Source of the DNA: Candidatus Poribacteria bacterium
GTDB lineage: Bacteria; Poribacteria; WGA-4E; WGA-3G
Direction: 5' to 3'
Length of the DNA: 64,000 nt
Assembly (NCBI GenBank): GCA_965214095.1
Contig: OZ243938.1
Span: forward strand, 1,600,001-1,664,000
The position numbers were made by a program, and so were the translations under genes. The notes beneath the pieces were generated by a model. The model had not been told where the DNA came from. It was given only the letters and a program-made list of their open reading frames with translations, and made no database searches. Position 1 is the stretch's first letter; each line of letters starts with the position of its first letter. Shown here one piece after another: positions 1-52,731 of this stretch.

Positions 1-2
1 CT

Positions 3-560
3 GATGGTAAACAACTCGCTGCAGCACTAACAGAGAGTGCTGGAATGCTTTGGGATATTGACAGCGGTGAACAACTCGGAGTTTTCCCCACAGAACTACC
101 AGAAGATACCTCCCTCTATAGAGGCGATCCAGAGCAGATACACCAATATATTCAAAAATATAAAAAAAGAAGTGGCTATAAGTGCATCCCTTACAAACTC
201 GTCTTCTCTCCTTGTGGCACGACGATCGCCTGTGGGATAAAAGATCATATCCAGTTGCGAGACACAGATACCTTAGAAACACAGATGCTCATACTGCTAC
301 CAAAAACGTGCACCAAACCGTTTGCGCTTACATTTTCCCCCTGCGGAAAATACCTCGTCTCTGGGTCGTGGTGGATAAAGGGATTGGACAAAGTATCCAT
401 AAGAATATGGGAAGTCGCAACGGGTCAAAATATACACACATTCTGGGGACATACAACAGATGTGCAGGATTTAGCATTTTCACCGGATGGCAAATATCTC
501 GCAAGTGGCAGTTATGATGGCACCATCCTGTTCTGGGATATGAAACCATTCATCAATTAG
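3..560 (+). CDS. WD40 repeat protein, 5'-truncated by window edge (array gene W0)
   Basis: Frame open from position 3 (DGKQLAAALTESAGMLWD...); GH..WD repeat at C-terminus; near-identical to the C-termini of 2700..4763 and 9302..11386. Confidence 0.9.
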   Translation, partial: DGKQLAAALTESAGMLWDIDSGEQLGVFPTELPEDTSLYRGDPEQIHQYIQKYKKRSGYKCIPYKLVFSPCGTTIACGIKDHIQLRDTDTLETQMLILLPKTCTKPFALTFSPCGKYLVSGSWWIKGLDKVSIRIWEVATGQNIHTFWGHTTDVQDLAFSPDGKYLASGSYDGTILFWDMKPFIN

Positions 561-713
561 TTTATGTGCGTCATGTTGATCTAAACAACTGTAGCAATCG
601 CTGAGGAGATTATTATGTATCATAAACAAACCTATAATACGAATCAAATGAAATCTGATAATGCAGATGTAACTACCTGGAAACTCCCCGATGGTGCAAT
701 TGCACGATTAGGA
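477..713 (+). repeat. Conserved WD40-array junction repeat, copy 1 (last blade + spacer + RBS + N-terminal leader)
   Basis: ttttcaccggatggcaaatatctcgcaag...tagtttat(at)gtgygtcatgttga...gaggagattattatg...caaacctataatacgaatcaaatraaatctgataat recurs at 6917-7156 and 9161-9388. Confidence 0.9.
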
Positions 714-2600
714 CAAGGACTCGTATTTGACATGGCGTTTTCACCGGATAACGCGTCTCTCGCTGTTGCAACTCGCGTCGGGGTATGGATGTATGAACTC
801 GACACCATGCAGCCCGTCACATTATTTGAAACCGAACGGGGCATGCTTTCTAACGTCGTCCTTTCACCCGATGGAAAATGTGTTGCTACTAGCAACGGGG
901 ATGGCATTATCAAGGTGCGAGAGATAGAGACCCGGCGGTGTGTTGCGAAAATACGAGGCTGGCACGGAGGCACCTCCCAACTTGCCTTTTCACCGGATAG
1001 CCAATACATCGCCGCATCTGGCCACGGATACGGCGACGTTTACATCTGGTGCGCAAAAACCGGCCAACATGTCGCAAGTTTCAAAGTGGGAGGCACACTG
1101 AAGGAAGGTGAACGCTCTCCTGCCCGTTTCCCAATCTGCTTTTCACCCGATGGGCAGCTGCTCGTTTATGCTTCTGACTGGACCACCCTTACTGTTCGAA
1201 ACCTAAAAACGAAAGAATGCTTTGCTTATCTGCGTCATCTGCGCGAATCAGGGCATGTGTATGATCTCGTCTTTTCACCTTGTAGTCAGTTTCTTGCTGC
1301 GAGTATTCAGGACCCGACGACACGTGAGAACATTGAGGTGCAAGTGTGGAATATTGATAAAGAGATATTGGAGACAACTTATACCGACTACAACGGAACT
1401 CGGGCGATTCTCGCCTATTCCCCTGATGGGGCATTACGGGTGGCAGATGTGTATGAAGACAAGGTAGTGATGTGGAATGCGTCCCGGGGTGAAAAACTTG
1501 ATACCATTGAATATCCACCAGAAATATGTAGAATAGAACAATGTATCTCGACTGATGGACAACAGTTCGCAATTCTCACCAACCGCGATATCCGCGTGTG
1601 GCGTGCAGGCTCCCCTGCCATAGTAGCACCGCTCACAGTGCCTAATCAGGTGCCAGAATCTCTGTTTTTTTATCAAACGGACAGGATGCTGGTTTGCCAA
1701 CACTGGTATGCAGATACCGTTTTCTGGGATGTTGTCCAGAAACAGGTGTCACCTCCCCCGACTCCACAAAAGAGCGGAGGTAAAAGGTGTGCGCTGTCCC
1801 CTTGTGAAGAATTGTTGGTTCTCATCGGAGAAGGCGGTCAAACTCTTGAAGTCTGGAACATTGTGTCCGGAACCCAGATAGCGGAACTCACCGGACATCA
1901 AAGTTTTATCACCACCGTAGTGTTTTCACCCGCAGGGGAACACCTCATCAGCGGTGATGTAGATGGGAAACTTGTTGTGTGGCGTGTCCAACGTTGGGAA
2001 AAGCAGCATGCATTTATAGGGCATGCTGAGCCGCTTCGGACAGCAGCCTTTCACCCCAACGGACAGCAATTCGCTACTACTGACGGGTATGGTATATTTC
2101 TTTGGGACGTTACGAGTGGTGAACAGCTTGGCTCACCTTCTGTAGACTCCACCTTTGTTACCCTATATAAAGGAGATATGCGACGAATCCAGAGACAAAC
2201 CCAGCCACGTAACAAACTGCCAAAGAATCTCCATTCAATTGCGTTTTCACCTTGTGGCACTTTTTTGGCTGCTGGATTATACGGTGGAGTTCATCTATGG
2301 GATGCTATAACTTTGGAGCCGCACATGGGGATGATTCTACCTGAGAGTTGCTCCCTTGTCGGTGTCGTTGTGTTTTCTCCATGTGGTCGGTATCTTGCCT
2401 CCGGTTCTTGGTGGAACAAAACAGACAAAGTCTCTATCCGTTTATGGGAAGTTGCCACTGGGGAAAACATCCATACCTTCTGGGGGCATACTTCAGATGT
2501 ACAAAATCTCGCTTTCTCAAAGGATGGCGAACTTCTGGCAAGTAGCAGCTATGATGGCACTATTTTATTGTGGGATATGAAACCGTTTATTAACACTTAA
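615..2600 (+). CDS. WD40 repeat protein (array gene W1)
   Basis: 661 aa; many FSPDG/FSPCG...WD blades; RBS GAGGAG; leader TTWKLPDGAIARLG. Confidence 0.9.
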   Translation: MYHKQTYNTNQMKSDNADVTTWKLPDGAIARLGQGLVFDMAFSPDNASLAVATRVGVWMYELDTMQPVTLFETERGMLSNVVLSPDGKCVATSNGDGIIKVREIETRRCVAKIRGWHGGTSQLAFSPDSQYIAASGHGYGDVYIWCAKTGQHVASFKVGGTLKEGERSPARFPICFSPDGQLLVYASDWTTLTVRNLKTKECFAYLRHLRESGHVYDLVFSPCSQFLAASIQDPTTRENIEVQVWNIDKEILETTYTDYNGTRAILAYSPDGALRVADVYEDKVVMWNASRGEKLDTIEYPPEICRIEQCISTDGQQFAILTNRDIRVWRAGSPAIVAPLTVPNQVPESLFFYQTDRMLVCQHWYADTVFWDVVQKQVSPPPTPQKSGGKRCALSPCEELLVLIGEGGQTLEVWNIVSGTQIAELTGHQSFITTVVFSPAGEHLISGDVDGKLVVWRVQRWEKQHAFIGHAEPLRTAAFHPNGQQFATTDGYGIFLWDVTSGEQLGSPSVDSTFVTLYKGDMRRIQRQTQPRNKLPKNLHSIAFSPCGTFLAAGLYGGVHLWDAITLEPHMGMILPESCSLVGVVVFSPCGRYLASGSWWNKTDKVSIRLWEVATGENIHTFWGHTSDVQNLAFSKDGELLASSSYDGTILLWDMKPFINT

Positions 2601-2699
2601 ATATTTCTCGTAAATTCTCTTGGTCAATTTCATATAATACCTTGACGCACGAGGTTATTGAATACTGAACGTCTATTAGTAATAAAAGGAGACATCTTC

Positions 2700-4763
2700 T
2701 TGGAAAAGAGAATACATACAACCCCCTCATTTAGACCTATTGACGACACAGATGTAACAACTTGGAAACTACCTGAAGGTGCAATCGGCAGATTGGCACG
2801 TGGACGGGTGTCAGATATGTCCTTTTCAGTTGATGGTAAATATCTTGCTGTCGCAACCCCTATCGGTTGTTGGTTGTATGATCGATCATCCCTGAAACCA
2901 CTCGACTTGTTCGAAACAGAATGCGGTATGCTTGATTCCATTGTCTTTTCACACGACACCCAATTCATTGCTACAAGTAATAAAGATGGTGTTCTAAAGA
3001 TATGGGATACACAAACGCTAAAGTGCCTCGCAAAGATAAACCATCGCAAGAATGTAGATGCAACTTCAGGATATTTTTGGAACCTCCATTTTTCTCGGGA
3101 CAACGCATACTTAGCAGCATCTTGTTTTGACAAACAAAATGTTGTCTACGCGTGGCACAAAAACACTGATGAACCTGCGATTTACTTCCCAATTGACTTA
3201 GAAAAAGAAAGTGGACACGACTTTCCTATCTGTTTCTCTCCGATAGGGAATCTACTTGCATACGTGTCTGCTGGAACCCCGCAGAACACTCTCACCATTT
3301 CCGATATAGAGACTAATGAACACATCACACATCTCAACTGTATAGCACCATTGGTATACCGAGGTCTTGTCTTTTCTCCTTGTGGACAATATATAGCTGC
3401 TATCAATCTGAACAATGAGATGTTGGTGTGGAATGTTCACAACGGCACTTTGGAAACGGAACCCACTACTTATAATGGGAGGAGGTTAATCCCTGCCTAT
3501 ACACCCGATGGCACACTACGCGTTGCCGATATTTACGACTATAAAGTTGTAATATGGGATGCTATCCGAAAAGAAATAATGGATACCTTTAAATGTCAGA
3601 ACCGCTGGCATGATCATTTTTCATCCGATGGTGCACACATCGCAACGATCCTCTCGCGCAGCGATCTCTGTGTGTGGACAGTCGGGTCACCGTCAACAAA
3701 AGTTACAAGTCCTGCTGATCATAAACCTGTTCCATATTCGGTTGTTTTTTTTAAAAAAGGTAAAACATTAACAAGTCCAGAAATGTTTGGTGCACAGCTC
3801 GTTTGTTGGAATGTTGCACAGAGGCAAACAGAACAGATTTTCCCAACGCTGAGGATGCAGGCACAGTACACGACTCAAACTAAAAATCTCACAACGGAAG
3901 AAAGACAGGATTTGTTCCGAGTCAGCACATTGTCTCCTTGTGGAAAACGACTAGCACTTTGCAAACTTCCGAGGGGTTCAATTGAAATCTGGGACATTAC
4001 GTCTGAAACACTCATTATAAAACTCTCGGACAGTAGAGGATTTGACGCCGCAATGTGTTTTTCACCTTCTAATAAACATCTCATCGGCACAGCACCTACG
4101 GGCGGTACAGGAGACATCGGTGTATGGGATACACAGTCTGGGAAGAAAGTTAATATGCTCACAGGACATACGAATTATATTTTAACAGTAGCTTTCCATC
4201 CAAGCGGTAAACGACTCGCAACCGTCGCCAAGGATAGAACAGCAAGGCTCTGGGATATTGACAGCGGTGAACAACTCGGAGTTTTCCCCACAGAACTACC
4301 AGAAGATACCTCCCTCTATAGAGGCGATCCAGAGCAGATACACCAATATATTCAAAAATATAAAAAAAGAAGTGGCTATAAGTGCATCCCTTATAAACTC
4401 GTCTTCTCTCCTTGTGGCACAACGATCGCCTGTGGGATAAAAGATCATATCCAGTTGCGAGACACAGATACCTTAGAGACACAGATGCTCATACTGCTAC
4501 CAAAAACGTGCACCAAACCGTTTGCGCTTACATTTTCCCCCTGCGGAAAATACCTCGTCTCTGGGTCGTGGTGGATAAAGGGATTGGACAAAGTATCCAT
4601 AAGAATATGGGAAGTCGCAACGGGTCAAAATATACACACATTCTGGGGACATACAACAGATGTACAGGATTTAGCATTTTCACCGGATGGCAAATATCTC
4701 GCAAGTAGCAGTTATGATGGCACCATACTCCTCTGGGATATGAAACCTATTATATGCACCTAA
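2700..4763 (+). CDS. WD40 repeat protein (array gene W2)
   Basis: ORF 2658..4763; likely TTG start at 2700 after AAGGAG; WD blades; paralog of 9302..11386. Confidence 0.9.
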   Translation: MEKRIHTTPSFRPIDDTDVTTWKLPEGAIGRLARGRVSDMSFSVDGKYLAVATPIGCWLYDRSSLKPLDLFETECGMLDSIVFSHDTQFIATSNKDGVLKIWDTQTLKCLAKINHRKNVDATSGYFWNLHFSRDNAYLAASCFDKQNVVYAWHKNTDEPAIYFPIDLEKESGHDFPICFSPIGNLLAYVSAGTPQNTLTISDIETNEHITHLNCIAPLVYRGLVFSPCGQYIAAINLNNEMLVWNVHNGTLETEPTTYNGRRLIPAYTPDGTLRVADIYDYKVVIWDAIRKEIMDTFKCQNRWHDHFSSDGAHIATILSRSDLCVWTVGSPSTKVTSPADHKPVPYSVVFFKKGKTLTSPEMFGAQLVCWNVAQRQTEQIFPTLRMQAQYTTQTKNLTTEERQDLFRVSTLSPCGKRLALCKLPRGSIEIWDITSETLIIKLSDSRGFDAAMCFSPSNKHLIGTAPTGGTGDIGVWDTQSGKKVNMLTGHTNYILTVAFHPSGKRLATVAKDRTARLWDIDSGEQLGVFPTELPEDTSLYRGDPEQIHQYIQKYKKRSGYKCIPYKLVFSPCGTTIACGIKDHIQLRDTDTLETQMLILLPKTCTKPFALTFSPCGKYLVSGSWWIKGLDKVSIRIWEVATGQNIHTFWGHTTDVQDLAFSPDGKYLASSSYDGTILLWDMKPIICT

Positions 4764-4795
4764 AACAACTGATAAAAAATAACTTGGAGGTTTCC

Positions 4796-7000
4796 ATGGA
4801 TAATCAACGATCACAAACACCCACACAAATACCCCAAACAAACGCAGATATTACCACTTGGTCTCTCCCTGAGGGTGCAATTGCACGTTTAGGGCGCGGT
4901 CGTAACCGTGGTGGTCTAACATTTTCACCTGATGGTGATTCTCTTGTTGTTGCGACAGACATCGGGTGTTGGTTGTATGACCTTGATACGCTGACGCCGA
5001 GTGCGTTATGGGCAACAGAACGGGGGATGGTTTCTGCCATCTCCTTTTCTCATAATGGGAAGTGGATTGCTACCACCAACTGGGACGGCATCGTGAAGAT
5101 ATGGGACACACAAACCTTACGCTGCATTTCCCAAATAGAACCACCTTGGCATCCTAATACATATGTAGATTTTTCATCAGATGGGCAGCACTTAGCTCTG
5201 GTTGGTAGTACACAAACTTCTGCATGGACAGCTGTTTACGACTGGCACTTGAACACAACTACGCCTATCATAAACTTAGATTTTACGCTGAAACCACAGG
5301 TATACTCTGCAGTCTCAACAGCTTTTTCCATTAATGGTAATTTATTTGCGTATACGTCCGACTACAATATGACATCTGTGATGCACATGGAGACAGGGGA
5401 GATCATAGCGAAATTTACTGACACATATACCGATGACACATATACCAAAGGTCCTATTTTAGGGACCACCAACTTAGTTTTTTCACCTTGTGGAGAGTTC
5501 CTTGCGGGTTGTAATAAAAAGGACACGGTTCATGTATGGAATATCCAAAGCGGGAACTTTACGATGGAACCGACAACTTATCATCAGAGCACTCGGGTAC
5601 TGCCGACCTACCTATCTGATGGCACATTACGGGTTGCTGCGCGTCATCCAAAAGAAATAATCATCTGGGATACGAAGTCGCAGGAGAAGGTGGACTCCAT
5701 TGCATATTCGGGAGGGATCTTCTGGGCAACGTGCTTTTCAGTTGATGGTAGAAAGTTCGCAATCGCCAGTAGATACGATGATCTTAAGCTCTGGTGTGAA
5801 GGTTGTTCCTCAAAAGTCGTATCTCTGACTGAACATCTACATCCGGACCCTGTCCAAAGGTTCCCGAGCACACTGGATTTTTCTAAGGACAGTCGGACAC
5901 TTTTCTGTGGATACTGGAAACACATCGGACACCTTGCTTGGGATGTTTCGAAGCACCAAATAGCACGGACATTTCCGTCACATTCACATGAATATTCGGC
6001 ACATCCCGATATGCCTTTCACGATGTCACACAATGCGGAACTGATAGCTACTGCAAACGGCATGGACAGCCCCATTAAAGTTTGGGATATAGCGTCAAAT
6101 ACGCAAGTTGCAGAGTTCCTCGAATCTTCATGGCAAGTGTGCTGGCTGACTTTTTCTTCAACAGCAGAATATCTTCTGAGTAGCATGAATAGAGACGCAG
6201 CCAAGGTTTGGGATGTAGAATCTGGCACGCAAGTCGCAGAACTTACTGAGAAGGATAACTTAATGGAGAAAGGGTTCAAGATGAAAATGTTTTCTCCGAC
6301 AGATGAATATATACTCGGTATCAGTAAGGATCGTATCAGCGTGTGGGATGCCTTGAAGTGGGAACATCTTTATGAAACTCACCTCAAGGGTTTTAACAGG
6401 TCAAGGAGAGAGGGAGTATTTAAGTTTGGGACACCGTTGAGGTTTCATCCAGACGGTCAGCATTTCATCACTGCTGGATACGAAAAGGATGCTTTTGTCT
6501 GGGACCTCAAATGCGGTGAACAAGTGGGTTCACTTCACACAGAAAAATGTTTAGATACAACCCTCTATAGAGGTGAGCCACAAGATATCCAGCGTCTCCG
6601 CGAACAACAGAATGCGGACTCTCGACGTATCCGTGGAATTGAAACATCCCCCTGCGGCACTTTTATTGCTGGCGCAATGCATAACGAAATTAGGGTATGG
6701 GACGCTGCTACCTTACAAACCCAAATAGCAATCATACCATCCATTGGCTGTCAGAAGTCTTATATAATAGTGTTTTCACCTTGCAGCAAGTATCTGGCAA
6801 CAGGTGCGTGGTGGCAAGAGGGACAAACAAAAATGTCTATCAGGTTGTGGAATATCATTACAGGTGATAATATTGCCACTTTTTGGGCACACACGACTGA
6901 TGTTGATAAACTTGCGTTTTCACCGGATGGCAAATATCTCGCAAGCGGTAGTTATGATGGTACTATCCTCGTCTGGGATATGAAACCATTTATAAATTAG
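4796..7000 (+). CDS. WD40 repeat protein (array gene W3)
   Basis: ORF 4754..7000; ATG 4796 after GGAGG; WD blades; close paralog of 7058..9244. Confidence 0.9.
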   Translation: MDNQRSQTPTQIPQTNADITTWSLPEGAIARLGRGRNRGGLTFSPDGDSLVVATDIGCWLYDLDTLTPSALWATERGMVSAISFSHNGKWIATTNWDGIVKIWDTQTLRCISQIEPPWHPNTYVDFSSDGQHLALVGSTQTSAWTAVYDWHLNTTTPIINLDFTLKPQVYSAVSTAFSINGNLFAYTSDYNMTSVMHMETGEIIAKFTDTYTDDTYTKGPILGTTNLVFSPCGEFLAGCNKKDTVHVWNIQSGNFTMEPTTYHQSTRVLPTYLSDGTLRVAARHPKEIIIWDTKSQEKVDSIAYSGGIFWATCFSVDGRKFAIASRYDDLKLWCEGCSSKVVSLTEHLHPDPVQRFPSTLDFSKDSRTLFCGYWKHIGHLAWDVSKHQIARTFPSHSHEYSAHPDMPFTMSHNAELIATANGMDSPIKVWDIASNTQVAEFLESSWQVCWLTFSSTAEYLLSSMNRDAAKVWDVESGTQVAELTEKDNLMEKGFKMKMFSPTDEYILGISKDRISVWDALKWEHLYETHLKGFNRSRREGVFKFGTPLRFHPDGQHFITAGYEKDAFVWDLKCGEQVGSLHTEKCLDTTLYRGEPQDIQRLREQQNADSRRIRGIETSPCGTFIAGAMHNEIRVWDAATLQTQIAIIPSIGCQKSYIIVFSPCSKYLATGAWWQEGQTKMSIRLWNIITGDNIATFWAHTTDVDKLAFSPDGKYLASGSYDGTILVWDMKPFIN

Positions 7001-7156
7001 TTTATATGTGCGTCATGTTGATACAAACAAGCAGTAGCAATTGTTGAGGAGATTATTATGCAACATAAACAAACCTATAATACGAATCAAATAAAATCTG
7101 ATAATACAGATGTAACAACTTGGCACCTTCCCGATGGAGCAATTGCACGGTTAGGA
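6917..7156 (+). repeat. Conserved WD40-array junction repeat, copy 2
   Basis: Aligns by eye with 477-713 and 9161-9388, including the non-coding spacer. Confidence 0.9.
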
Positions 7157-9244
7157 CGAGGTCGTATCCGTGGGGGTCTAACATTTTCACCTGATGGTAA
7201 TTCTCTTGTTGTTGCGACAGACATCGGGTGTTGGTTGTATGACCTTGAAACATTAACACCACGGGCATTGTGGAATACAGAACGAGGGATGGTTTCTGCC
7301 ATCTCCTTTTCTCATAATGGGAAGTGGATTGCTATCGGAAATATGCACGGCACCGTGAAGGTATGTGACACACAAACCTTACAATCCATTGCAATAATAG
7401 AAACGAACCGACTTGTTACACGTATTAATATTTCTCCGAGTGGACAGCACTTGGCAATTGCTACAGTAGCTGGTGGCGTTCAAACTACTATTTATGCTTG
7501 TCGTCCTCATATCAGTACACCGATTGCAAACTTTGCTTTAACGCAAGAACAACGGGTAAAATGTACAACATCAATAGCATTTTCGCCTAATGGCTGCCTA
7601 TTTGCTTACACGTCTGACATCAATAAAACATCTGTGATATATGTAGAGACAGGAGAAATCATCGCGGAACTTCACGATACGTATACCACGTATACCGAAG
7701 AACCTGGTGGATGTACGAAATTGGTTTTTTCACCGTGTGGTAAGTTCCTTGCGGGGTGTAATAAGAAGGACACGGTTCATGTCTGGGATATCCAAAGCGG
7801 TAACTTCGCAATAGAACCGACAACCTATCATCAGAGCACTCGCGTGCTGCCGACTTATCTATCTGATGGTACCCTAAAGGTTGCAGCGTGTTATCGCAAA
7901 GAGGTAATATTCTGGGATACAAAGTTACAACAGAAGATGGATGCTTTTGAATATATAGGGAGCGAAGGTGGGGCAACGTGCTTTTCAGTTGATGGTAGAA
8001 AGTTCGCAATTGCCAGTAAATACGACGATCTTAAGGTCTGGTGTGAAGGTTCTCCCTCAAAAGTCGTATCTTTACCTGAACATCTACATCCCGACCCTGT
8101 GCAAAGGTTCCCGAATATACTGGATTTTTCTAAAGACAGTCGGACGCTTTTCTGTGGATATTGGAAACACACCGGGTACCTCGCTTGGGATGTTTCGAAG
8201 CACCAAATAGCACGGACATTTCCGTCACATTCACGCGGATATTCGGCACATCCCGAAATGCCTTTCACGATGTCACACAATGCGGAACTGATAGCTACAG
8301 CAAACGGAACGGACAGTCCCATTAGTGTTTGGAATGTAGTCTCAAACACGCAAGTGGCAGAGTTCCTCAAATCTTCACGGCAAGTGTGCTGGCTAACGTT
8401 ATCTCCAAAAGGAGAATATCTTGTGGGTAGCATGAAGGGAGACGCAGCCAAGGTATGGGATGTAGAATCTGGCACGCAAATCACAGAACTTACAGAGAAG
8501 GATACTTCGTTGACGAAAGGAGTCAGAATGAAGATGTTTTCCCCGACAGGTGAATATATACTCGGTATCGGTAAGGATCGTATCAGCGTGTGGGATGCCT
8601 TGAAGTGGGAACATCTTTATGAAACTCGCCTCAAAGAGTTTAACCGGTCCAGGAGAGACGGAGTGTTTAAGCTTGGGACACCGTTGAGGTTTCATCCAGA
8701 CGGTCAGCATTTCTTCACTGCTGGATACGAAGTGGGTGCTTATGTGTGGGAACTCAAAAACGGTGAACAAGTGGGGACACTACCCACAGAAATATGCATA
8801 GATACAACCCTATATAGAGGAGATCCACAGAACATCCAGCTGGTCCGTAAACAGCAGGAAACGACCCGTCGCGTCCGACAACTTGAGGTATCTCTTTGCG
8901 GTACTATTATTGCTGGCGCAATGCAAAACGAAATTAGGGTATGGGATGCAGCCACACTACAAACAAAAATGGTGATAATACCTCCGAAAGGATGTCAAAA
9001 ACCTTTCACCTTAGCCTTTTCACCGTGTAGTCAATATCTTGCTGCTGGCGTATGGTGGCAACACGGACAAATAAGAATGTCTATCCGGGTATGGAATATC
9101 ACTACTGGTGAAAATATTACTACCTTCTGGGCACATCCTACCGATATCGATAGACTTAGGTTTTCACCGGATGGCAAATATCTCGCAAGTGGCAGTTATG
9201 ATGGCACCATCCTGCTCTGGGATATGAAACCATTTATAAATTAG
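7058..9244 (+). CDS. WD40 repeat protein (array gene W4)
   Basis: 728 aa; WD blades; RBS GAGGAG; long shared blocks with W3. Confidence 0.9.
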   Translation: MQHKQTYNTNQIKSDNTDVTTWHLPDGAIARLGRGRIRGGLTFSPDGNSLVVATDIGCWLYDLETLTPRALWNTERGMVSAISFSHNGKWIAIGNMHGTVKVCDTQTLQSIAIIETNRLVTRINISPSGQHLAIATVAGGVQTTIYACRPHISTPIANFALTQEQRVKCTTSIAFSPNGCLFAYTSDINKTSVIYVETGEIIAELHDTYTTYTEEPGGCTKLVFSPCGKFLAGCNKKDTVHVWDIQSGNFAIEPTTYHQSTRVLPTYLSDGTLKVAACYRKEVIFWDTKLQQKMDAFEYIGSEGGATCFSVDGRKFAIASKYDDLKVWCEGSPSKVVSLPEHLHPDPVQRFPNILDFSKDSRTLFCGYWKHTGYLAWDVSKHQIARTFPSHSRGYSAHPEMPFTMSHNAELIATANGTDSPISVWNVVSNTQVAEFLKSSRQVCWLTLSPKGEYLVGSMKGDAAKVWDVESGTQITELTEKDTSLTKGVRMKMFSPTGEYILGIGKDRISVWDALKWEHLYETRLKEFNRSRRDGVFKLGTPLRFHPDGQHFFTAGYEVGAYVWELKNGEQVGTLPTEICIDTTLYRGDPQNIQLVRKQQETTRRVRQLEVSLCGTIIAGAMQNEIRVWDAATLQTKMVIIPPKGCQKPFTLAFSPCSQYLAAGVWWQHGQIRMSIRVWNITTGENITTFWAHPTDIDRLRFSPDGKYLASGSYDGTILLWDMKPFIN

Positions 9245-9388
9245 TTTATATGTGTGTCATGTTGAGCTAAACAAACTGCAGCAATTGCTGAGGAGATTAT
9301 TATGCATCATATTCAAACCTATAATACGAATCAAATGAAATCTGATAATACAGATGTAACAACATGGGAACTACCTGAAGGTGCAATC
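9161..9388 (+). repeat. Conserved WD40-array junction repeat, copy 3
   Basis: Aligns by eye with 477-713 and 6917-7156. Confidence 0.9.
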
Positions 9389-11386
9389 GACAGATTAGCA
9401 AGGGGACGGGTGTCGGATATGTCATTTTCAACTGATGGTAAGTATCTTGCCGTCGCAACGCCGATCGGTTGTTGGTTGTATGATAGATTGTCGCTGAAAA
9501 CGATCGCGTTATTTGATACAGAAAGTGGAATGCTTAATACCATTGCCTTTTCACCCGACACCCAGTTCATTGCTACCAGTAATAAAGATGGTGTTTTAAA
9601 GGTATGGGATACACAAACGCTAAAGTGTCTTGCAAAGATAAACCATCGCAAGAATGTAGATGCAGCTTCAGGATATTTTTCGAAGCTCTGCTTTTCTCAA
9701 GATAACCAATACTTAGCCGCATCCTGTTTTGATAAACAAAATGTTGTCTACGCATGGCAACAAAACACTGATAAACCTATGATCTGTTTACCGATTGATG
9801 TAGAAGAAACGAAGGGACACAGCTTTCCCATCTGTTTCTCACCTAATGGGTATCTACTCGCGTATGTGTCTTCTGTATCTCTCCAGAACACTGTAACGAT
9901 TTCCGATATTGAAACCGGTGAACACATCACACATCTTAGCCAATCCTCGGCACTGTCTACATACCGTTTTTCCCCTTGCGGACAATATATAGCAGCTGCT
10001 AATCGGAACAATGAAGTGTTGGTATGGAATGTTCACAACGGCACTTTGGAAACGGAACCAACAGCGTATGATGGAAAGTGGTTAAGCATTGCCTATACAC
10101 CTTATGGCATACTACGCGTTGCCGATATTTACGACTATAAAGTTGTGATTTGGGATGCTATCTCAAAAGAAAAAATAGATACCTTTGAACGCGATAAACC
10201 CAGGTCTGATCATTTTTTAAGCGGACATCATTTACACTTTTCATCCGGTGGCGCACACATCGCAACGATCCTCTCGCGCAGTAAGCTCTGTGTGTGGACG
10301 GTCGGGGCACCATCAAGTAAAGTTTCAAGTCCTGCTGATCATAAACCTGTTGTCCACGCGGTTGCTTTTTCTAAAGACGGAAAGACATTAGCAAGTAGAT
10401 ATGCGTGGGGTATGTATCACGTATTCTGGGATGCTACACAGCGACAAACAGAACAAATATTCCCAACGCCAAATATCCAAGCACAACGCACAGCTCTAAC
10501 TAAAGACCTAACAGAAGAAGAGAAAAAGCAGTGGTACCGTGTCAGTGCCTTGTCACCTTGTAGGGAACGACTGGCACTTCGCGACCTTCCGAGAGGGTCA
10601 GTTGAAATTTGGGATATTGCGTCTGAAACCCTTATTACAGAACTCTCGGACAGTAAGAAATTTAGATCTTGGCGTGAAATGCGTTTTTCACCGACAGGTG
10701 AACGTTTTATCGATACAGCACCGACAGGTGATATTGATGTCTGGGATACACAGTCTGGTGAGAAAGTCAATACACTCGCAGGAGATAACCGACTGATTTT
10801 GACAACTGCGTTTCACCCTGATGGTAAACAACTCGCTGCTGCACCAAAAGGGAGTGCTGGAATGCTTTGGGATATTGACAGCGGTGAACAACTCGGAGTG
10901 TTCCCTACAGAACTGCCAGAAGATACCTCCCTCTATAGAGGCGATCCAGAGCAGATACACCAATATATTCAAAAATATAAAAAAATAATCAAGCAATATA
11001 AGTGTATCCCTTACAAACTCGCCTTCTCTCCTTGTGGCACGATGATCGCCTGTGGGATACAAGATCATATCCGGTTGCGAAATACAGCAACCTTAGAAAC
11101 GCACATGCTTATACTACCACCCGAAACGTGTAGCAGACCGTTTGCACTCACATTTTCCCCCTGCGGAAAATACCTCGTCTCTGGGTCGTGGTGGATAAAG
11201 GGGTTGGACAAAGTATCCATAAGAATATGGGAAGTCGCAACGGGTCAAAATATACACACATTCTGGGGACATACAACAGATGTGCAGGATTTAGCATTTT
11301 CACCGGATGGCAAATATCTCGCAAGTAGCAGTTATGATGGCACCATACTCCTCTGGGATATGAAACCTTTTACCGGTTCAGATTGA
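9302..11386 (+). CDS. WD40 repeat protein (array gene W5)
   Basis: 694 aa; WD blades; paralog of W2 and W0. Confidence 0.9.
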   Translation: MHHIQTYNTNQMKSDNTDVTTWELPEGAIDRLARGRVSDMSFSTDGKYLAVATPIGCWLYDRLSLKTIALFDTESGMLNTIAFSPDTQFIATSNKDGVLKVWDTQTLKCLAKINHRKNVDAASGYFSKLCFSQDNQYLAASCFDKQNVVYAWQQNTDKPMICLPIDVEETKGHSFPICFSPNGYLLAYVSSVSLQNTVTISDIETGEHITHLSQSSALSTYRFSPCGQYIAAANRNNEVLVWNVHNGTLETEPTAYDGKWLSIAYTPYGILRVADIYDYKVVIWDAISKEKIDTFERDKPRSDHFLSGHHLHFSSGGAHIATILSRSKLCVWTVGAPSSKVSSPADHKPVVHAVAFSKDGKTLASRYAWGMYHVFWDATQRQTEQIFPTPNIQAQRTALTKDLTEEEKKQWYRVSALSPCRERLALRDLPRGSVEIWDIASETLITELSDSKKFRSWREMRFSPTGERFIDTAPTGDIDVWDTQSGEKVNTLAGDNRLILTTAFHPDGKQLAAAPKGSAGMLWDIDSGEQLGVFPTELPEDTSLYRGDPEQIHQYIQKYKKIIKQYKCIPYKLAFSPCGTMIACGIQDHIRLRNTATLETHMLILPPETCSRPFALTFSPCGKYLVSGSWWIKGLDKVSIRIWEVATGQNIHTFWGHTTDVQDLAFSPDGKYLASSSYDGTILLWDMKPFTGSD

Positions 11387-11459
11387 GGCACTTCCAATAA
11401 GAATGTGCCAATTGCTTGAAACTGAGATGAATTTCCGCTAAACTTTAGCAGGGAGGATT

Positions 11460-12737
11460 ATGATCATGTCAAACATTTCAGATGAACAATTGGTAGTCGC
11501 CGCGGCAAAAGGTGATACCAATGCAATGGAAAACATAAAAGAAAGAGCAATATTTGGAAAATACGGCATACGCAAATGTCTTAAGAAGATGGGATGTACT
11601 GATAAAGAAATATCTCTGCTGGAACCCAAAATAGTCCAGATTTTGTTGGCTTCCATACCCAAATATGAATTCACTGCTCCGTTTTTTGTATACGGATACC
11701 GTCTTGCGGTAAATTATTCTCTCCAATATAAGGAAAACAGGGAAGTTCTACTGTTTGACAAACGGATACATAAGGAAAAAGCATGCCCAAATACACTGCG
11801 GACATTGAGCGACACTCTTGGAAAACCTAAGCATCCGCCGCTTGAACAAATTGACCTTGAGATTCGGACACTTGTGAGTTTACTGAATCAATCACCTGAC
11901 ATTAAAACATCCGGTTCCTCTTGTAGTGGACATCCAGATCAGGAAGAATGGAAAAACGGGAAATGGTCTCAATTTGGAGGATATATTGGGATCATACCAA
12001 TGAGTTCCCCGGACAAGGCATTGGATTTTCTCAACGGTATACTGAAGAAGTTAGATAATTCTAACACACAGACCAAGAATAGATTTTTACCAGCAGACCT
12101 ACAGCAAACAAAGAGTACACTGAATGAAAACATCACTTTCACTGACGCAATTCGCGCACGATACAAGCAAGTAGACGCTGAGGATTTGTTCTGCTCAGAT
12201 GCCCCCGTTGTCTTGATAAACGTTTCATTCCGTTTTTATGTGTGCCATAGCCATGCAAAGCATTCTTTAGAAATCTGGAAACAACTCATCGCGCGTATAA
12301 AAGAGTTGATCCCAGAAGACAGGGAGCTTACTGCTGAAGTTGACACGCCAGAGAAGGCAATGCAGCTATTGCAAAAAGCATTACACCGGTTACCCTTCCT
12401 ATTTAGTGCCACACTTACGACAAGTCAGGAAGGATATCCCGGAATAGTCTTGACTACTGTAGCAGACCTCGCTTTATTACAGTGGTTTTCAACATTAGCC
12501 GATAGGCTGCATGAATGTCTTGATAATGCAGGATATGTAAGTTCTCGCTATACAGAAGATGAAATACCATATGCTGAAAAGTGGTCTTTCACGTTGAGAC
12601 CATTTCTAAACCAAGAATGCATACCGTTACCGCATCTGTTAGCACCGCAGTGGGAACCACGCACTCGTGAAGACCATCTGAAGATTTGGAAACTCCTTGA
12701 GTTAACAGTGGCAGAACAAGTTGAATGTGAAATTTAG
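11460..12737 (+). CDS. Hypothetical protein: degenerate ECF sigma region-2-like N-terminus + TYW3-like (SCSGH) domain
   Basis: SDEQLVVAAAKGDTNAME...F.VYGYRLAVNYSLQY resembles ECF sigma regions 1.2/2; IDLEIRTLVSLLNQSPDIKTSGSSCSGH resembles the TYW3 N-terminal motif; start may be ATG 11466. Confidence 0.75.
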   Translation: MIMSNISDEQLVVAAAKGDTNAMENIKERAIFGKYGIRKCLKKMGCTDKEISLLEPKIVQILLASIPKYEFTAPFFVYGYRLAVNYSLQYKENREVLLFDKRIHKEKACPNTLRTLSDTLGKPKHPPLEQIDLEIRTLVSLLNQSPDIKTSGSSCSGHPDQEEWKNGKWSQFGGYIGIIPMSSPDKALDFLNGILKKLDNSNTQTKNRFLPADLQQTKSTLNENITFTDAIRARYKQVDAEDLFCSDAPVVLINVSFRFYVCHSHAKHSLEIWKQLIARIKELIPEDRELTAEVDTPEKAMQLLQKALHRLPFLFSATLTTSQEGYPGIVLTTVADLALLQWFSTLADRLHECLDNAGYVSSRYTEDEIPYAEKWSFTLRPFLNQECIPLPHLLAPQWEPRTREDHLKIWKLLELTVAEQVECEI

Positions 12738-12861
12738 AGCATTTACCAGTAATCTATATTAAAATGTAATAAGTAAACACCTCGCTATAGAAAATGAAGA
12801 CTAAAAACATTTTGGGGTGATCCACTCAACAATCGTCAAATTGACATTTAGGAGGATTTTT

Positions 12862-14139
12862 ATGTTGTCAAACATTTCAGAGCAAAGATTGATAGTTGCA
12901 GCGGTGAAAGAAGGTGATTCCAATGCATTGGAAGAACTAAAAGAACGTCTAATTTCTGGACAATACGGTATACGCCCTATAATTAATAGAATTCCATGTG
13001 CAGATGCCGACAGAAAAATACTTGAACAACATATTGTGGAGAATATCATCAATGATTTGCATGCACATGGGTTCAGAGGGTCTATCCAGACATCTGGATT
13101 CCGTCTCGCTACCCATTTTGCTATCCAATATAGGAATAATAACGACTTTAGACTTTCTGACCTAGACAGTCCGAAAGAGAAAGTAGTGCTGACTGCAAAC
13201 AATGATCCTGAAGAACCTAAGCACCCTCCACTGGAGGAAATTGACCTTGAGATTCGGACACTTGTGAGTTTACTGAATCAATCACCTGATATTAAAACAT
13301 CCGGTTCTTGTAGTGGACATCCACAATGGCAACCCGATAAATGGACTCAGTATGGAGGCTATCTTGGGATCAGACCTATCAGTTCTCCGCGTAAAACTTT
13401 AGATTTTCTTGTTGGTATGCTGATGCAGTTAGATAATACAGGCACGCCAACCAATAATGCATACTTGCCAGCTGCGCTGCAAGTAGAGGATAGCACACGG
13501 AATGATAACACCATTTCTGTCGAAGCAATTCGTGAGCGATATAAGCAAGCTGACGCGGAGAATTTATACTGTTCCGGTGCGCCTATTGTCCTTATAGGTG
13601 TTTATTTTCGTTTCTATGTTTGTCATCGTGAAGAAAGCCACTCTTTAGAAATCTGGAAACAACTCATCGCACGTATAAAAGAGTTGATCCCAGAAGACGG
13701 AGAGCTTACTGCCGAAGTTGACACGCCAGAGATGGCAATGCAGCTATTACAAAAAGCATTACACCGGTTACCCTTCCTATTTAGTGCCACACTTACGACA
13801 AGTCAGGAAGGATATCCCGGTATTATCTTGCACACAGTAGCAGACCTTTCATTATTCCAATGGTTTTGTGCATTAACCGACAAACTACATGAGCAGCTTG
13901 GCAAAGCAGGATATGTAAGTTCTCGCGATACAGAAGATGAAATACCATATGCTGAAAAGTGGTCTTTCACGTTGAGACCATTTCTAAATCAAGAATGCAT
14001 ACCGTTACCGCATCTGTTAGCGCCGCAGTGGGAACCACGCACTCGTGAAGACCATCTGAAGATTTGGAAACTCCTTGAGTTGGCAGTTGCAGAACAACTT
14101 AAGTCTGAGGGTATTACATTAAAAACTGAAAATACGTAG
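12862..14139 (+). CDS. Paralog of 11460..12737 (sigma-2-like + SCSGH domain)
   Basis: ATG 12862 after AGGAGG; SEQRLIVAAVKEGDSNALEEL...GFRLATHFAIQY; KTSGSCSGH; C-terminal third nearly identical to the upstream paralog. Confidence 0.75.
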   Translation: MLSNISEQRLIVAAVKEGDSNALEELKERLISGQYGIRPIINRIPCADADRKILEQHIVENIINDLHAHGFRGSIQTSGFRLATHFAIQYRNNNDFRLSDLDSPKEKVVLTANNDPEEPKHPPLEEIDLEIRTLVSLLNQSPDIKTSGSCSGHPQWQPDKWTQYGGYLGIRPISSPRKTLDFLVGMLMQLDNTGTPTNNAYLPAALQVEDSTRNDNTISVEAIRERYKQADAENLYCSGAPIVLIGVYFRFYVCHREESHSLEIWKQLIARIKELIPEDGELTAEVDTPEMAMQLLQKALHRLPFLFSATLTTSQEGYPGIILHTVADLSLFQWFCALTDKLHEQLGKAGYVSSRDTEDEIPYAEKWSFTLRPFLNQECIPLPHLLAPQWEPRTREDHLKIWKLLELAVAEQLKSEGITLKTENT

Positions 14140-14157
14140 TGTATCTCATAAATCATT

Positions 14158-14229
14158 ATAGGACGAGGTTTTGTGCTTCATCCTATCCTGGGAAAAAGAC
14201 AATGGACGGGCACAGAGACTCGCCTCTAC
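14158..14229. repeat. Inverted pair of GTAG-type REP-like palindromes (REPIN-like)
   Basis: ataggacgaggttttgtgcttcatcc ... ggacgggcacagagactcgcctctac; similar to gtagggcaaggtctctgtgccttggcc at 37688. Confidence 0.55.
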
Positions 14230-14285
14230 GATTTAAGGTAATGTGGTATTATTTCATTTCAAACTGTTTTTATGGTGTGTTTAAT

Positions 14286-16169: not shown

Positions 16170-16407
16170 AGACACCTCCAATCAGAATGCAATAGGGGGT
16201 AATGTCAATAATTTCAGATGAAGGGCATTAGTTAACAATCTCACTGCTTTAACTGTGAGTCAATGAAATTCAGAGGCATTCAATTGTCAATATTCTCTAT
16301 CGTGGGAGGGGTTTCAAACCCCGATTTAACAACAAAATCAGTCGTCCTCACGCAATTCACATTGCTTTCTATTGCTATAAATGAGGTATTATGATAAATT
16401 GAAGTAA

Positions 16408-16541
16408 TCCCATTTCTAAAAAATGAAAATTCATTGTGAAATTATCGGTTCAAGCAGAGTTGAAGAATGTCCGAGGCGCAATGAATTGAACGACTACAAA
16501 CGCGTTTTTTGTGAATGACAAGCGATCAATTAGGAATGGGA
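16408..16541. repeat. Putative ~135 bp MITE with internal GTAG-REP core
   Basis: tcccatttctaa (16408) / ttaggaatggga (16530-16541) inverted ends; core gaatgtccgaggcgcaatgaattgaacgactac also at 28080. Confidence 0.45.
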
Positions 16542-52646: not shown

Positions 52647-52731
52647 GCCGGAGTGGTGAAATCGGTAGACGCACTGGATTCAAAATCCAGCGGACCCTAG
52701 GTCCATGTCGGTTCGAGTCCGACCTCCGGCA
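52647..52731 (+). tRNA. tRNA-Leu(CAA)
   Basis: GCCGGAG/CTCCGGC acceptor stem; CTGGA-TTCAAAA-TCCAG anticodon arm; long variable arm; GTTCGAG T loop; CCA not encoded. Confidence 0.97.

What the first reader, a model, noticed from the sequence alone, without database searches (positions are those of the whole stretch)
1..11386. Mosaic WD40 cassette array with signs of ongoing segmental recombination: candidate diversifying receptor locus
Seen: W0 matches W5 at 1-50 (vs 10818-10867). It matches W2 almost exactly over 51-520 (vs 4251-4720; I count 5 substitutions). Its last codons and spacer resemble W4/W3. At those differing sites W5 agrees with W0 at four and then switches to the W2 state in the last blade. 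W3 and W4 alternate near-identical blocks (e.g. ~5730-6060 vs ~7970-8305) with divergent blades. Inference: the genes exchange blade-sized segments by gene conversion or unequal crossover, generating a repertoire of variable binding surfaces. No recombinase is visible in the window.
Basis: partly seen in the sequence, partly recalled or inferred. Interest (0 to 1): 0.8.

Follow-up and report, generated by a model that had tools for sequence, protein, structure and literature searches.

The report
Recombining WD40 gene array, sponge symbiont
The region is the end of a row of 14 related WD40 propeller genes next to a sigma-factor gene in a sponge-symbiont (Poribacteria) genome; the youngest copies have really swapped segments, but the family looks like old, conserved paralogs rather than an active diversity generator.

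Summary
Window 1-11386 is the 3' third of a 14-gene, same-strand tandem array (window -18881 to 11386) of ~690-aa double WD40 propeller genes. The array follows a 16S rRNA gene, tRNA-Ile and an ECF sigma-factor gene in a Candidatus Poribacteria genome.

- informative sites lie in blocks (0 of 2000 permutations reach the observed values);
- synonymous divergence runs from 0.00 to 0.8 within one gene pair;
- segment trees switch sister, with AU rejection of the alternatives;
- a 95%-identical gene from another assembly carries the same mosaic.

G11/G12 and the tail-spacer-leader junctions are also exchanged.

The "diversifying receptor" reading is only partly supported:
- the array consists of about ten old subfamilies with orthologs in other Poribacteria;
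- ortholog dN/dS is about 0.24;
- every copy is a full gene with its own ribosome-binding site;
- no recent exchange is seen in the older pairs.

Arrays in relatives hold 1 to 12 genes in different orders, which indicates birth-and-death evolution with patchy gene conversion.

A sigma-WD40 fusion of the same family elsewhere in this genome suggests the propellers act with ECF sigma factors. That link is inferred, not shown.

The parts
1..560 (+).
   Evidence: The open frame runs -1602 to 560, 693 aa from the ATG at -1521. Pfam WD40 66.9 bits against a cutoff of 27. It is a mosaic of G13-like and G10-like blocks.
51..547 (+). Youngest exchange tract: G08 51-547 matches G10 4251-4747
   Evidence: 98.4% identity, 8 mismatches in 497 nt. 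It contains a 185-nt exact match beginning at 279/4479. Synonymous divergence pS is 0.00-0.13 here, against 0.5-0.8 just upstream.
477..673 (+). Type A junction module (gene tail + spacer + next gene's leader), copy at G08|G09
   Evidence: 93.0% identical to 9161-9360 (G12|G13) and 88.8% to 6917-7157 (G11|G12). The same module lies upstream of G07 and G08. Its distribution does not follow the phylogeny of the gene bodies.
615..2600 (+). WD40 gene G09 (W1), 661 aa
   Evidence: ORF. Pfam WD40 163.6 bits. The body is closest to G04, at 69% nt identity. Its ortholog in a relative is 96% nt identical from window 666 onward but carries a different leader.
2700..4763 (+). WD40 gene G10 (W2), 687 aa from TTG 2700 (an alternative TTG lies at 2658)
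   Evidence: ORF. Type B leader and spacer. The segment 3800-4400 is only 76-79% identical to G08/G13 and has no other donor in the genome.
4796..7000 (+). WD40 gene G11 (W3), 734 aa
   Evidence: ORF. 79% nt identity to G12 overall, with 60-nt windows ranging from 33% to 100%.
5724..6573 (+). High-identity block shared by G11 and G12 (7971-8820)
   Evidence: 89.2% identity over 851 nt. pS falls to 0.00-0.2 here, against 0.5-1.0 in the flanks. Heterogeneity at four-fold sites is reached by 0 of 5000 shuffles.
7058..9244 (+). WD40 gene G12 (W4), 728 aa
   Evidence: ORF. Pfam WD40 112.5 bits. Type A leader.
9302..11386 (+). WD40 gene G13 (W5), 694 aa; last gene of the close-knit array
   Evidence: ORF. 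AlphaFold2 model with pLDDT 84.8 and pTM 0.85, showing about 14 four-stranded units, i.e. a tandem double propeller. Foldseek finds tandem WD40 structures. An ortholog in a related genome is 93.9% nt identical.
11460..12737 (+). Unknown 425-aa protein, paralog of the next gene
   Evidence: No Pfam or NCBIfam family reaches its cutoff; a weak TYW3-like stretch has E=0.0036. ORFs of similar size follow the arrays in two relatives.
12817..14139 (+). Unknown 440-aa protein, paralog of 11460-12737
   Evidence: 82% nt identity to the previous gene over 919 nt. The translations show near-identical C-terminal halves.
14139..16169 (+). 15th, more distant WD40 gene of the same family (likely true start near 14286, by my reading of the N-terminal motif)
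   Evidence: Pfam WD40 226 bits. It carries the family's N-terminal LPSEAIARFGRG and C-terminal LWDM motifs. Family HMM score 293 bits.

Best explanation
Window 1-11386 is the downstream part of a co-oriented tandem array of 14 paralogous genes. A 15th, more distant member follows two inserted unknown genes. Each gene encodes a ~690-aa protein predicted to fold as two WD40 beta-propellers.

The array lies directly behind an ECF sigma-factor gene in a Candidatus Poribacteria (sponge-symbiont) genome. About 6% of that genome is WD40 genes of this family.

The array evolves by birth and death. Tandem duplication, loss and re-ordering occur through ordinary homologous recombination between the conserved gene ends. 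On top of this there is patchy, in-register gene conversion among the youngest duplicates (G08/G10/G13 and G11/G12) and at the tail-spacer-leader junctions. No dedicated recombinase is needed, and none was found among the ORFs scanned.

The proteins have a constant part: the N-terminal motif, blade 1 and the last two blades, which close the propeller. They also have a variable part: blades 3-11, mainly the loops expected on the top face. The paralogs therefore probably bind different partners.

Inferred, not shown: the propellers work together with ECF sigma factors. They would be the separate-gene equivalent of the WD40 C-terminal extension of ECF57-type sigma factors.
For: Anatomy:
- 14 tandem ORFs lie on one strand, with spacers of 18-403 nt, each preceded by a GGAG-type ribosome-binding site.
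- WD40 Pfam hits reach 112-164 bits against a cutoff of 27.
- The G13 model has pLDDT 84.8 with about 14 blades, and it matches tandem WD40 structures.

Recombination in the trio G08/G10/G13:
- There are 465 variable sites: 208 group G08 with G13, 163 group G08 with G10, 70 group G10 with G13, and 24 show three states. They lie in blocks.
- 0 of 2000 permutations reach the observed excursions or run count.
- pS within one pair ranges from 0.00 to 0.8.
- Heterogeneity at four-fold sites is significant for three of the four young pairs and for neither of the two old control pairs.
- ML trees of 8 segments switch between (G08,G10) at 83-99% support, (G08,G13) at 84-99%, and (G10,G13) at 92%.
- AU tests reject (G08,G13) in two segments (p=0.008 and 0.02) and reject (G08,G10) in another (p=0.006).

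Paralogs closer than the ortholog:
- G13 is 97-100% identical to its ortholog R009 over most of the gene.
- In the first ~240 nt, around nt 1500-1620, and in the last ~150 nt, G13 is closer to G08/G10 than to R009.

Not an assembly artefact:
- P0005, from another assembly's 1.75-Mb contig, is 95% identical to G08.
- It has G08's state at 83 of 84 G13-type sites and at 57 of 68 G10-type sites.
- Contigs from runs of three samples reproduce window pieces of up to 1063 nt with no differences.

Birth and death:
- Arrays in other Poribacteria genomes hold 12, 11, 7, 4, 4 and 1 genes, in different orders.
- 49 genes from six genomes form about ten subfamilies. Eight of them hold genes from two or more genomes; G07 has no counterpart in the five relatives.
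- Leader and spacer types are re-assorted relative to gene bodies.

Constant and variable parts:
- Entropy is 0.73-1.23 bits for blades 13, 14 and 1, against 1.8-2.0 bits for blades 3 and 7-10.
- D-A and B-C loops score 2.12 and 1.98 bits, against 1.21 and 1.66 for A-B and C-D loops.

Sigma link:
- The upstream ORF is an ECF sigma factor: TIGR02937 94.4 bits against a cutoff of 42.9, plus Sigma70_r2, Sigma70_ECF and r4_2.
- The same sigma gene, 84-88% identical, precedes the arrays in three relatives.
- P0124 in this genome is a single 871-aa protein made of an ECF sigma domain followed by a complete family member, including the MENQ...DVTTWALPEGAIARLGRG leader and the LLWDLTPYL end.
- A review passage states that ECF57 sigma factors carry WD40-like C-terminal extensions (PMC8999054, passage seen).
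Against: - The breakpoints for the segment trees and AU tests were chosen after inspecting the data, which inflates those p-values. In three of the eight segments the AU test cannot tell the topologies apart.
- The GENECONV-like test flags 30 of 91 pairs at 0 of 1000 permutations. It is confounded by the conserved gene ends, so it cannot be read as 30 exchanging pairs.
- G10-G13 shows no significant heterogeneity at four-fold sites (1731 of 5000).
- No read or contig spans a whole gene. The laid runs are short contigs, and three of the four come from one study that may be the window's own source.
- Function is not demonstrated. There are no expression data.
- The sigma's close paralog elsewhere in the genome is followed by a small 214-aa ORF rather than a WD40 gene.
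- The array of the closest relative genome (G031) is not preceded by the sigma gene.
- The top/bottom assignment of loops rests on recalled WD40 topology, not on model coordinates.
Confidence: 0.8

Rival explanations
1. A programmed diversification locus. The array would be a bank of cassettes that are actively and frequently recombined, as in pilE/pilS- or vlsE-type variation or a diversity-generating retroelement, to produce new receptor variants within a population.
For: Segments really have moved between copies. The conserved gene ends could act as homology arms. Variation is concentrated in loops expected on the binding face. Arrays differ strongly between genomes.
Against: - All six in-window copies, and all 14 in the array, are full-length genes with their own ribosome-binding site and start codon. 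There is no expression site with silent fragments.
- The longest exact identity between copies is 185 nt.
- G08's mosaic is stably inherited in a 95%-identical gene of another assembly.
- Subfamilies are conserved across species, with dN/dS about 0.24.
- No reverse transcriptase or recombinase was found among the 24 different ORFs scanned by Pfam in and beside the array. Not every window ORF was scanned.
Confidence: 0.05
2. A repertoire of eukaryote-like repeat proteins used on the sponge host. The WD40 proteins would be exported or exposed and would bind host proteins. The array expands and recombines under host-driven selection, and the sigma gene is only the transcriptional driver or a neighbour.
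For: WD40 domains are reported as highly abundant in Poribacteria and are discussed as eukaryote-like proteins (PMC3909097, passages seen; PMC8163846, passages seen). Expansions are lineage-specific. All 10 source-named proteins among the 120 listed homologs are from Candidatus Poribacteria.
Against: - No hydrophobic N-terminal stretch is visible in the 14 leaders (by eye; no signal-peptide predictor was run).
- No T9SS C-terminal sorting domain or any other export domain appears in the NCBIfam or Pfam scans of G11 and G13.
- The same family is fused to a cytoplasmic sigma domain in P0124.
- Robbins et al. found WD40 not enriched in sponge MAGs.
Confidence: 0.2
3. An artefact. The mosaics would be chimeras produced by assembling a mixed population or by collapsed repeats in a metagenome-assembled genome.
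For: The genome is a metagenome-assembled genome, like its titled relatives. No single read or contig spanning a whole gene could be examined.
Against: - P0005 from a different assembly carries the same block pattern.
- R009 from another genome matches G13 at 97-100% over long stretches.
- Contigs from three samples match pieces of the window with 0 differences. One contig ends at 4280, about where the stretch shared with G08 (from 4251) stops being unique for 31-letter words. That word length is my assumption, not given by the tool.
- The copies are less than 90% identical overall, with at most 185 nt exact, so they are not hard to assemble.
Confidence: 0.03
4. No recombination. The block pattern would reflect only uneven selective constraint or uneven rates along the genes.
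For: The gene ends are conserved in all 14 paralogs. This by itself produces runs of matches.
Against: Uneven constraint cannot make G08 group with G13 in some blocks and with G10 in others. Heterogeneity persists at four-fold degenerate sites, while the old control pairs show none.
Confidence: 0.02

Closest known systems
NWD/HNWD (het-d, het-e) WD-repeat gene family of the fungus Podospora anserina (Paoletti et al. 2007, PMC1805685, abstract seen; Chevanne et al. 2010, PMC2873952, search listing only)
   Same: It is a multigene family of WD40 propeller proteins in which sequence is exchanged between paralogs. Variation is concentrated on the protein-interaction face.
   Different: - The fungal genes are NACHT-type NLRs at dispersed loci. 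Their repeats are highly similar within a gene, single repeat units are exchanged within and between genes, and four positions are under positive selection.
- Here there is no NTPase domain.
- No intragenic or out-of-register nucleotide repeats are seen: all listed HSPs of 40 nt or more are in register between different genes.
- Exchange is between tandem neighbours, and window dN/dS stays below 1.
ECF57-type sigma factors with WD40-like C-terminal extensions (review PMC8999054, one passage seen)
   Same: An ECF sigma factor is functionally coupled to a WD40 propeller. A fused sigma-WD40 protein of this very family exists in the same genome (P0124).
   Different: In the array, the sigma factor and the propellers are separate genes, and the propeller gene is present 14 times. 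Group membership of the sigma factor could not be tested because no ECF-group models were available.
Gene-conversion antigenic-variation loci of bacteria (pilE/pilS, vlsE; recalled, no paper read)
   Same: Tandem homologous sequences with segmental, in-register gene conversion.
   Different: Those loci have one expressed gene plus promoterless partial cassettes, and they switch at high frequency. Here every copy is a complete gene and the mosaics are evolutionarily stable.
Tandem double WD40 propellers in solved structures: 2ymu (highly repetitive propeller), Apaf-1 (3shf), Utp21 (4nsx), ciliary microtubule inner proteins
   Same: The fold matches: Foldseek E-values of 5e-35 to 1e-27, and TM-scores of 0.6-0.7 to the 600-residue double propellers.
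   Different: Sequence identity is only 12-22%. The match says nothing about function.
Eukaryote-like repeat proteins of sponge symbionts (Kamke et al. 2014, PMC3909097, passages seen)
   Same: They are WD40-rich Poribacteria proteins.
   Different: Kamke et al. note that many Poribacteria WD40 genes carry a Por-secretion C-terminal domain. The two array proteins scanned lack it. Tandem arrays, the sigma linkage and recombination are not mentioned in the passages I saw.

Membership tests
WD40 repeat / beta-propeller (Pfam PF00400) | WD40 repeat profile above the curated cutoff | tested here: met
   66.9 bits for the partial G08 and 112.5-163.6 bits for G09-G13, against a cutoff of 27.
WD40 repeat / beta-propeller (Pfam PF00400) | Propeller fold built from four-stranded blades | tested here: met
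   The model has pLDDT 84.8, is all-beta, and has about 14 groups of four strands. The top Foldseek hits are tandem WD40 propellers.
ECF57-type sigma factor with WD40 extension | Sigma2 and sigma4 domains and the WD40 extension in one polypeptide | tested here: not met
   The array genes have no sigma domain, and the sigma factor is a separate 206-aa gene. The feature is met only by the paralog P0124 elsewhere in the genome.
ECF57-type sigma factor with WD40 extension | Assignment of the sigma factor to group ECF57 by group-specific models, and the two conserved cysteines | not testable with these tools
   Only the general ECF models were available: TIGR02937 at 94.4 bits.
Fungal NWD/HNWD-type hypervariable WD-repeat NLRs | N-terminal effector plus NACHT NTPase domain | tested here: not met
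   The Pfam rows shown for the six in-window proteins are all beta-propeller families. Only the best 25 of 35-44 families per full-length protein are printed, so a weaker non-propeller hit would not have been seen.
Fungal NWD/HNWD-type hypervariable WD-repeat NLRs | Highly similar repeats within a gene, exchanged as single units | tested here: not met
   A self-BLAST of the array gave only in-register matches between different genes. A tandem-repeat finder was not run.
Fungal NWD/HNWD-type hypervariable WD-repeat NLRs | Positive selection on top-face residues | tested here: inconclusive
   Window dN/dS is 0.03-0.69 outside the leader. Loops expected on the top face are the most variable among paralogs. 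Site models (PAML, HyPhy) were not available.
Cassette-type antigenic variation (pilE/pilS, vlsE) | One expression site plus silent, truncated cassettes | tested here: not met
   All 14 copies are open from a start codon with an upstream GGAG to a stop.
Diversity-generating retroelement | Reverse transcriptase with a template/variable repeat pair | tested here: inconclusive
   No reverse transcriptase was found among the 24 different ORFs scanned. About a third of the window's ORFs were not scanned.

The most novel reading that the evidence does not exclude
One ECF sigma factor is served by a bank of 14 interchangeable WD40 sensor propellers. These would be the in-trans, multiplied form of the WD40 extension that ECF57-type sigma factors carry in cis. 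Each propeller keeps a constant closure module for the common partner and offers a different top face. Recombination through the conserved gene ends re-assorts, duplicates and fuses these modules, including fusing them back to sigma domains as in P0124. The input repertoire of a sigma factor would therefore be evolvable by cassette exchange.
Probability: 0.2. Interest if true: 0.75.

Novelty: new variant of a known kind. Interest (0 to 1): 0.5.

Why it matters
Bacterial WD40 proteins are poorly understood, and Poribacteria devote about 6% of this genome to one WD40 family.

This locus gives three concrete handles on the problem:
- A clean natural example of gene conversion and birth-and-death evolution in a bacterial propeller family.
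- A conserved physical link to an ECF sigma factor, including a fusion protein of the same family. This makes a sigma-regulatory role directly testable.
- A constant-versus-variable map of the propeller that says where partner specificity should lie.

The work also tempers the common assumption that WD40 proteins of sponge symbionts are host-directed eukaryote-like effectors.

Tried and rejected
Sigma-propeller complex prediction. The sigma factor (alignment A2) was folded with G13 (alignment A1). The result was no verdict: score 0.00 against a mark of 0.32. It counts neither for nor against binding.

Expression. No RNA holder was listed for window 1-10000, so nothing can be said about expression.

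Reads. Logan contigs of X1, X3, X4 (one study) and X5 (a second study) were laid on 1-11600.
- The pieces are 1063 nt or shorter, and none spans a gene, so the order of blocks on single molecules could not be checked.
- X5 left 5419-6579 uncovered and showed one joint, 2524 to 4701, with 13 odd letters between. At 90% likeness in a metagenome this is not usable evidence.

Promoter and terminator scan of 1-16500. It found 27 promoter-like sites against 34.8 expected, and 14 terminator-like sites against 13.6 expected. There is no signal.

ECF-type motif. TGTAAC-N17-CGTA occurs once in 36.6 kb, 88 nt before the sigma start codon. It recurs exactly in L010. In L013 and L014 it appears by my eye with one or two changed bases (TGTAGC-N17-CGC or CGT), which the pattern did not match. 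About 0.4 chance hits per strand are expected by my estimate, so this is only a lead.

GENECONV-like permutation over all 91 pairs. It is significant for 30 pairs but confounded by the conserved termini. I rely on the trio pattern and on four-fold sites instead.

External donor for G10's divergent segment 3800-4400. None was found in the genome.

The two unknown genes, 11460-14139. My guess of a sigma-like N-terminus was not supported.
- hhalign gave probability 0.4%.
- Atlas feature hits were 0.84-0.86, which is below the useful range.
- The TYW3-like hits were below cutoff.

Literature searches. I searched 'Poribacteria'+'WD40' (17 papers), 'ECF sigma'+'WD40'+'anti-sigma' (3 papers), WD40 gene conversion terms, and WD40 tandem array/symbiont terms. 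No listed title or passage that I read describes sigma-linked WD40 tandem arrays or their recombination in Poribacteria.

Not run: RDP, GARD, 3SEQ and PAML/HyPhy site models (not installed); a signal-peptide predictor; find_tandem_repeats.

Full report
WHAT IS THERE.

The window is G000:C1:1,600,001-1,664,000 of a 5.25-Mb, 4-contig genome. Bases 1-11386 hold the 3' end of one WD40 gene and five complete ones, all on the + strand. All of them hit Pfam WD40 far above the cutoff.

Reading upstream in the laid genome shows that this is only the end of a larger array. There are 14 tandem, co-oriented paralogs, which I call G00-G13, running from window -18881 to 11386. They are 656-734 aa long, with spacers of 18-403 nt, and each is preceded by a GGAG-type ribosome-binding site.

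Upstream of G00 lie:
- a complete 16S rRNA gene (Rfam, 1543 bits);
- tRNA-Ile(GAT);
- a 206-aa ECF sigma-factor gene (TIGR02937 at 94.4 bits against a cutoff of 42.9; Sigma70_r2, Sigma70_ECF and r4_2).

Downstream of G13 lie two paralogous unknown genes and then a 15th, more distant family member at 14139-16169. The rest of the window that I scanned holds ordinary metabolic genes: MoaA, SufBD, an ABC ATPase, MFS and others.

ORGANISM AND FAMILY.

All six public loci that encode close relatives are titled Candidatus Poribacteria. All 10 source-named proteins among the 120 listed homologs are also Poribacteria.

The family is very large:
- 1569 proteins have E<=1e-20 among the 8000 candidates scored.
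- All 31 related genomes searched have matches.
- In this genome, 141 open frames hit a profile built from the 14 paralogs. They fall into 70 clusters, total 316,287 bp (about 6% of the genome), and include arrays of 15, 12, 6 and 5 genes.

STRUCTURE.

An AlphaFold2 model of G13, built with a 56-row alignment, has pLDDT 84.8 and pTM 0.85. It is all-beta, with about 14 groups of four strands, and residues 1-21 are disordered. Foldseek finds tandem double WD40 propellers: 2ymu, Apaf-1, Utp21 and ciliary inner proteins, with E-values from 5e-35 to 1e-27.

Among the 14 paralogs, blades 13, 14 and 1 are the most conserved (0.73-1.23 bits), and blades 3 and 7-10 the least (1.8-2.0 bits). The D-A and B-C loops are more variable (2.12 and 1.98 bits) than the A-B and C-D loops (1.21 and 1.66 bits). 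From recalled WD40 topology, the D-A and B-C loops form the top face. The assignment was not made from model coordinates.

CHECK OF THE OBSERVATION.

The one soft spot is 'near-identical' for the W3/W4 block, which is 92.1% identical.

IS IT RECOMBINATION?

For G08/G10/G13, the 465 variable sites lie in long alternating blocks. G08 groups with G13 at 208 sites, with G10 at 163 sites, and G10 groups with G13 at 70 sites. None of 2000 shuffles of site order reaches the observed excursions or the observed low run count.

Sliding synonymous divergence within a single pair swings from 0.00 to 0.8.

At four-fold degenerate sites, where protein-level selection does not act, heterogeneity is reached by:
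- 0 of 5000 shuffles for G11-G12;
- 8 of 5000 for G08-G13;
- 81 of 5000 for G08-G10;
- 1731 of 5000 for G10-G13, so that pair is not heterogeneous.

The old pairs G04-G09 and G02-G03 serve as negative controls, at 3888 and 989 of 5000.

ML trees of eight segments give (G08,G10) in four segments, (G08,G13) in two, (G10,G13) at the 3' tip, and a weak (G08,G10) at 53% in the first segment. AU tests reject the alternative sister at p=0.005-0.02 in three segments. They are undecided in three others. The segment borders were chosen after seeing the data, so I weight the permutation and four-fold results more heavily.

Uneven constraint alone cannot explain a switch of sister.

INDEPENDENT SUPPORT.

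G13's ortholog in a related genome (R009) is 97-100% identical to G13 over most of the gene. At the 5' ~240 nt, near nt 1500-1620, and in the last ~150 nt, G13 is instead closer to its in-genome paralogs. This is the classical signature of gene conversion.

P0005 comes from a different assembly and is 95% identical to G08. It has G08's state at 83 of 84 G13-type sites and at 57 of 68 G10-type sites. The mosaic is therefore neither an assembly artefact nor brand new. P0005 ends with G10's tail rather than G08's, which implies a further exchange at the 3' junction.

Short contigs from three samples match the window exactly, but none spans a gene.

WHAT MOVES.

Besides internal tracts of about 135 to 500 nt, the unit 'gene tail + spacer + next gene's leader' is shared among positions that do not match the body phylogeny. 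Type A is found before G07, G08, G09, G12 and G13. Type B is found before G01-G06 and G10.

G09's ortholog in L010 is 96% identical from window 666 onward, yet it carries the leader that G01 has in this genome. Type A leaders were absent from the 36 array genes of five relatives but present in P0005.

The conserved N-terminal motif and the last blade therefore behave as homology arms.

WHAT KIND OF EVOLUTION.

Arrays in other Poribacteria hold 12, 11, 7, 4, 4 and 1 genes, in different orders. One of them is syntenic with this locus: 16S at 92.5% identity, sigma at 84%.

A tree of 49 array genes from six genomes resolves about ten subfamilies. Eight of them hold genes from two or more genomes; G07 has no counterpart in the five relatives. 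Expansions are lineage-specific: G08/G10/G13 and G11/G12 here, and six G11-like plus three G09-like genes in G031.

Orthologs of the trio have dN/dS of 0.19-0.29 (mean 0.24). No 20-codon window exceeds 0.8 outside the disordered leader. The longest exact identity between any two copies is 185 nt.

This is birth-and-death evolution of old, functionally maintained paralogs. Gene conversion is confined to the youngest copies and the gene ends. It is not a dedicated diversity generator.

FUNCTION (INFERRED).

The sigma gene precedes the array here and in three relatives. It has an ECF-like -35/-10 motif at the same place in those relatives; this is a weak lead.

In this genome an 871-aa protein, P0124, joins an ECF sigma domain to a complete member of this family, leader included. 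Two neighbouring genes in the same 12-gene array also show weak sigma similarity. Open frames of about 870 aa that match the family occur in relatives as well.

A separate array encodes ~1000-aa proteins. One was scanned and has sigma r2+r4 joined to BNR/sortilin-type repeats.

A review passage reports WD40-like C-terminal extensions in ECF57 sigma factors (PMC8999054).

By gene-fusion logic, the array proteins probably act with ECF sigma factors in the cytoplasm. I put this at roughly one in three. Arguments against it:
- The sigma's nearest paralog is followed by a small ORF, not a WD40 gene.
- The array in the closest relative lacks the sigma gene.
- Nothing has been measured.

The host-directed 'eukaryote-like protein' reading remains open. 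However, no export signal or sorting domain was found.

NOVELTY.

Gene conversion in tandem families is ordinary. WD40 abundance in Poribacteria is already published.

The following were not described in anything my four searches listed or in the passages I read:
- the 14-gene sigma-linked array;
- the junction-module shuffling;
- the same-family sigma fusion;
- the constant/variable map of the propeller.

I rate this a new variant of a known kind, of moderate interest.

Noticed in passing
outside the window: G000:C1:1578390-1580134 (window about -21610 to -19866; L023 891-2635): A complete 16S rRNA gene followed by tRNA-Ile(GAT). It is followed directly by the sigma gene and the WD40 array rather than by a 23S gene, so the 16S is unlinked. 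An unlinked 16S in Poribacteria is something I recall from the literature but did not read here.
   Followed up: partly
window 11460-12737 and 12817-14139: Two paralogous proteins of unknown function, 82% nt identical over 919 nt, with near-identical C-terminal halves and divergent N-terminal thirds. Both have a weak TYW3-like ...TSGSSCSGHP motif that stays below the cutoffs. ORFs of similar size follow the arrays in two relatives.
   Followed up: partly
outside the window: G000:C1:3228962-3285826: A tandem run of about 18 genes of ~1000 aa with weak similarity to the sigma factor. The one gene scanned has Sigma70_r2 and r4 joined to Sortilin/BNR-type and DUF6242 repeats. This would be a second large family of sigma-propeller fusions.
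   Followed up: partly
outside the window: G000:C1:868507-896114: A second WD40 array of 12 genes on the minus strand. Three members show similarity to the sigma factor; only P0124 was scanned, and it has Sigma70_r2 at residues 26-92. P0124 is a full sigma plus family-type propeller fusion.
   Followed up: partly
outside the window: window -1925 to -1521 (spacer between G07 and G08): This is the only long spacer in the array, at 403 nt. It contains a ~65-nt element with at least 20 copies of about 80% identity across the genome (a small dispersed repeat), and its first ~100 nt recur at two other loci.
   Followed up: partly
outside the window: G000:C1:1260550-1261849 (minus strand): A close paralog of the array's sigma factor (phmmer 368 bits), followed by a 214-aa ORF and a TPR-like ORF instead of WD40 genes. 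This may be a conventional sigma/anti-sigma pair.
   Followed up: no
window 52647-52731: One tRNA gene. It is the only Rfam match in the window at gathering threshold.
   Followed up: no
G031:C9:37500-75500 (loci L015, L016): The array in the closest relative has spacers of about 700 nt that hold small ORFs of 170-340 aa with no match to the family. It has six G11-like and three G09-like genes and is not preceded by the sigma gene.
   Followed up: no
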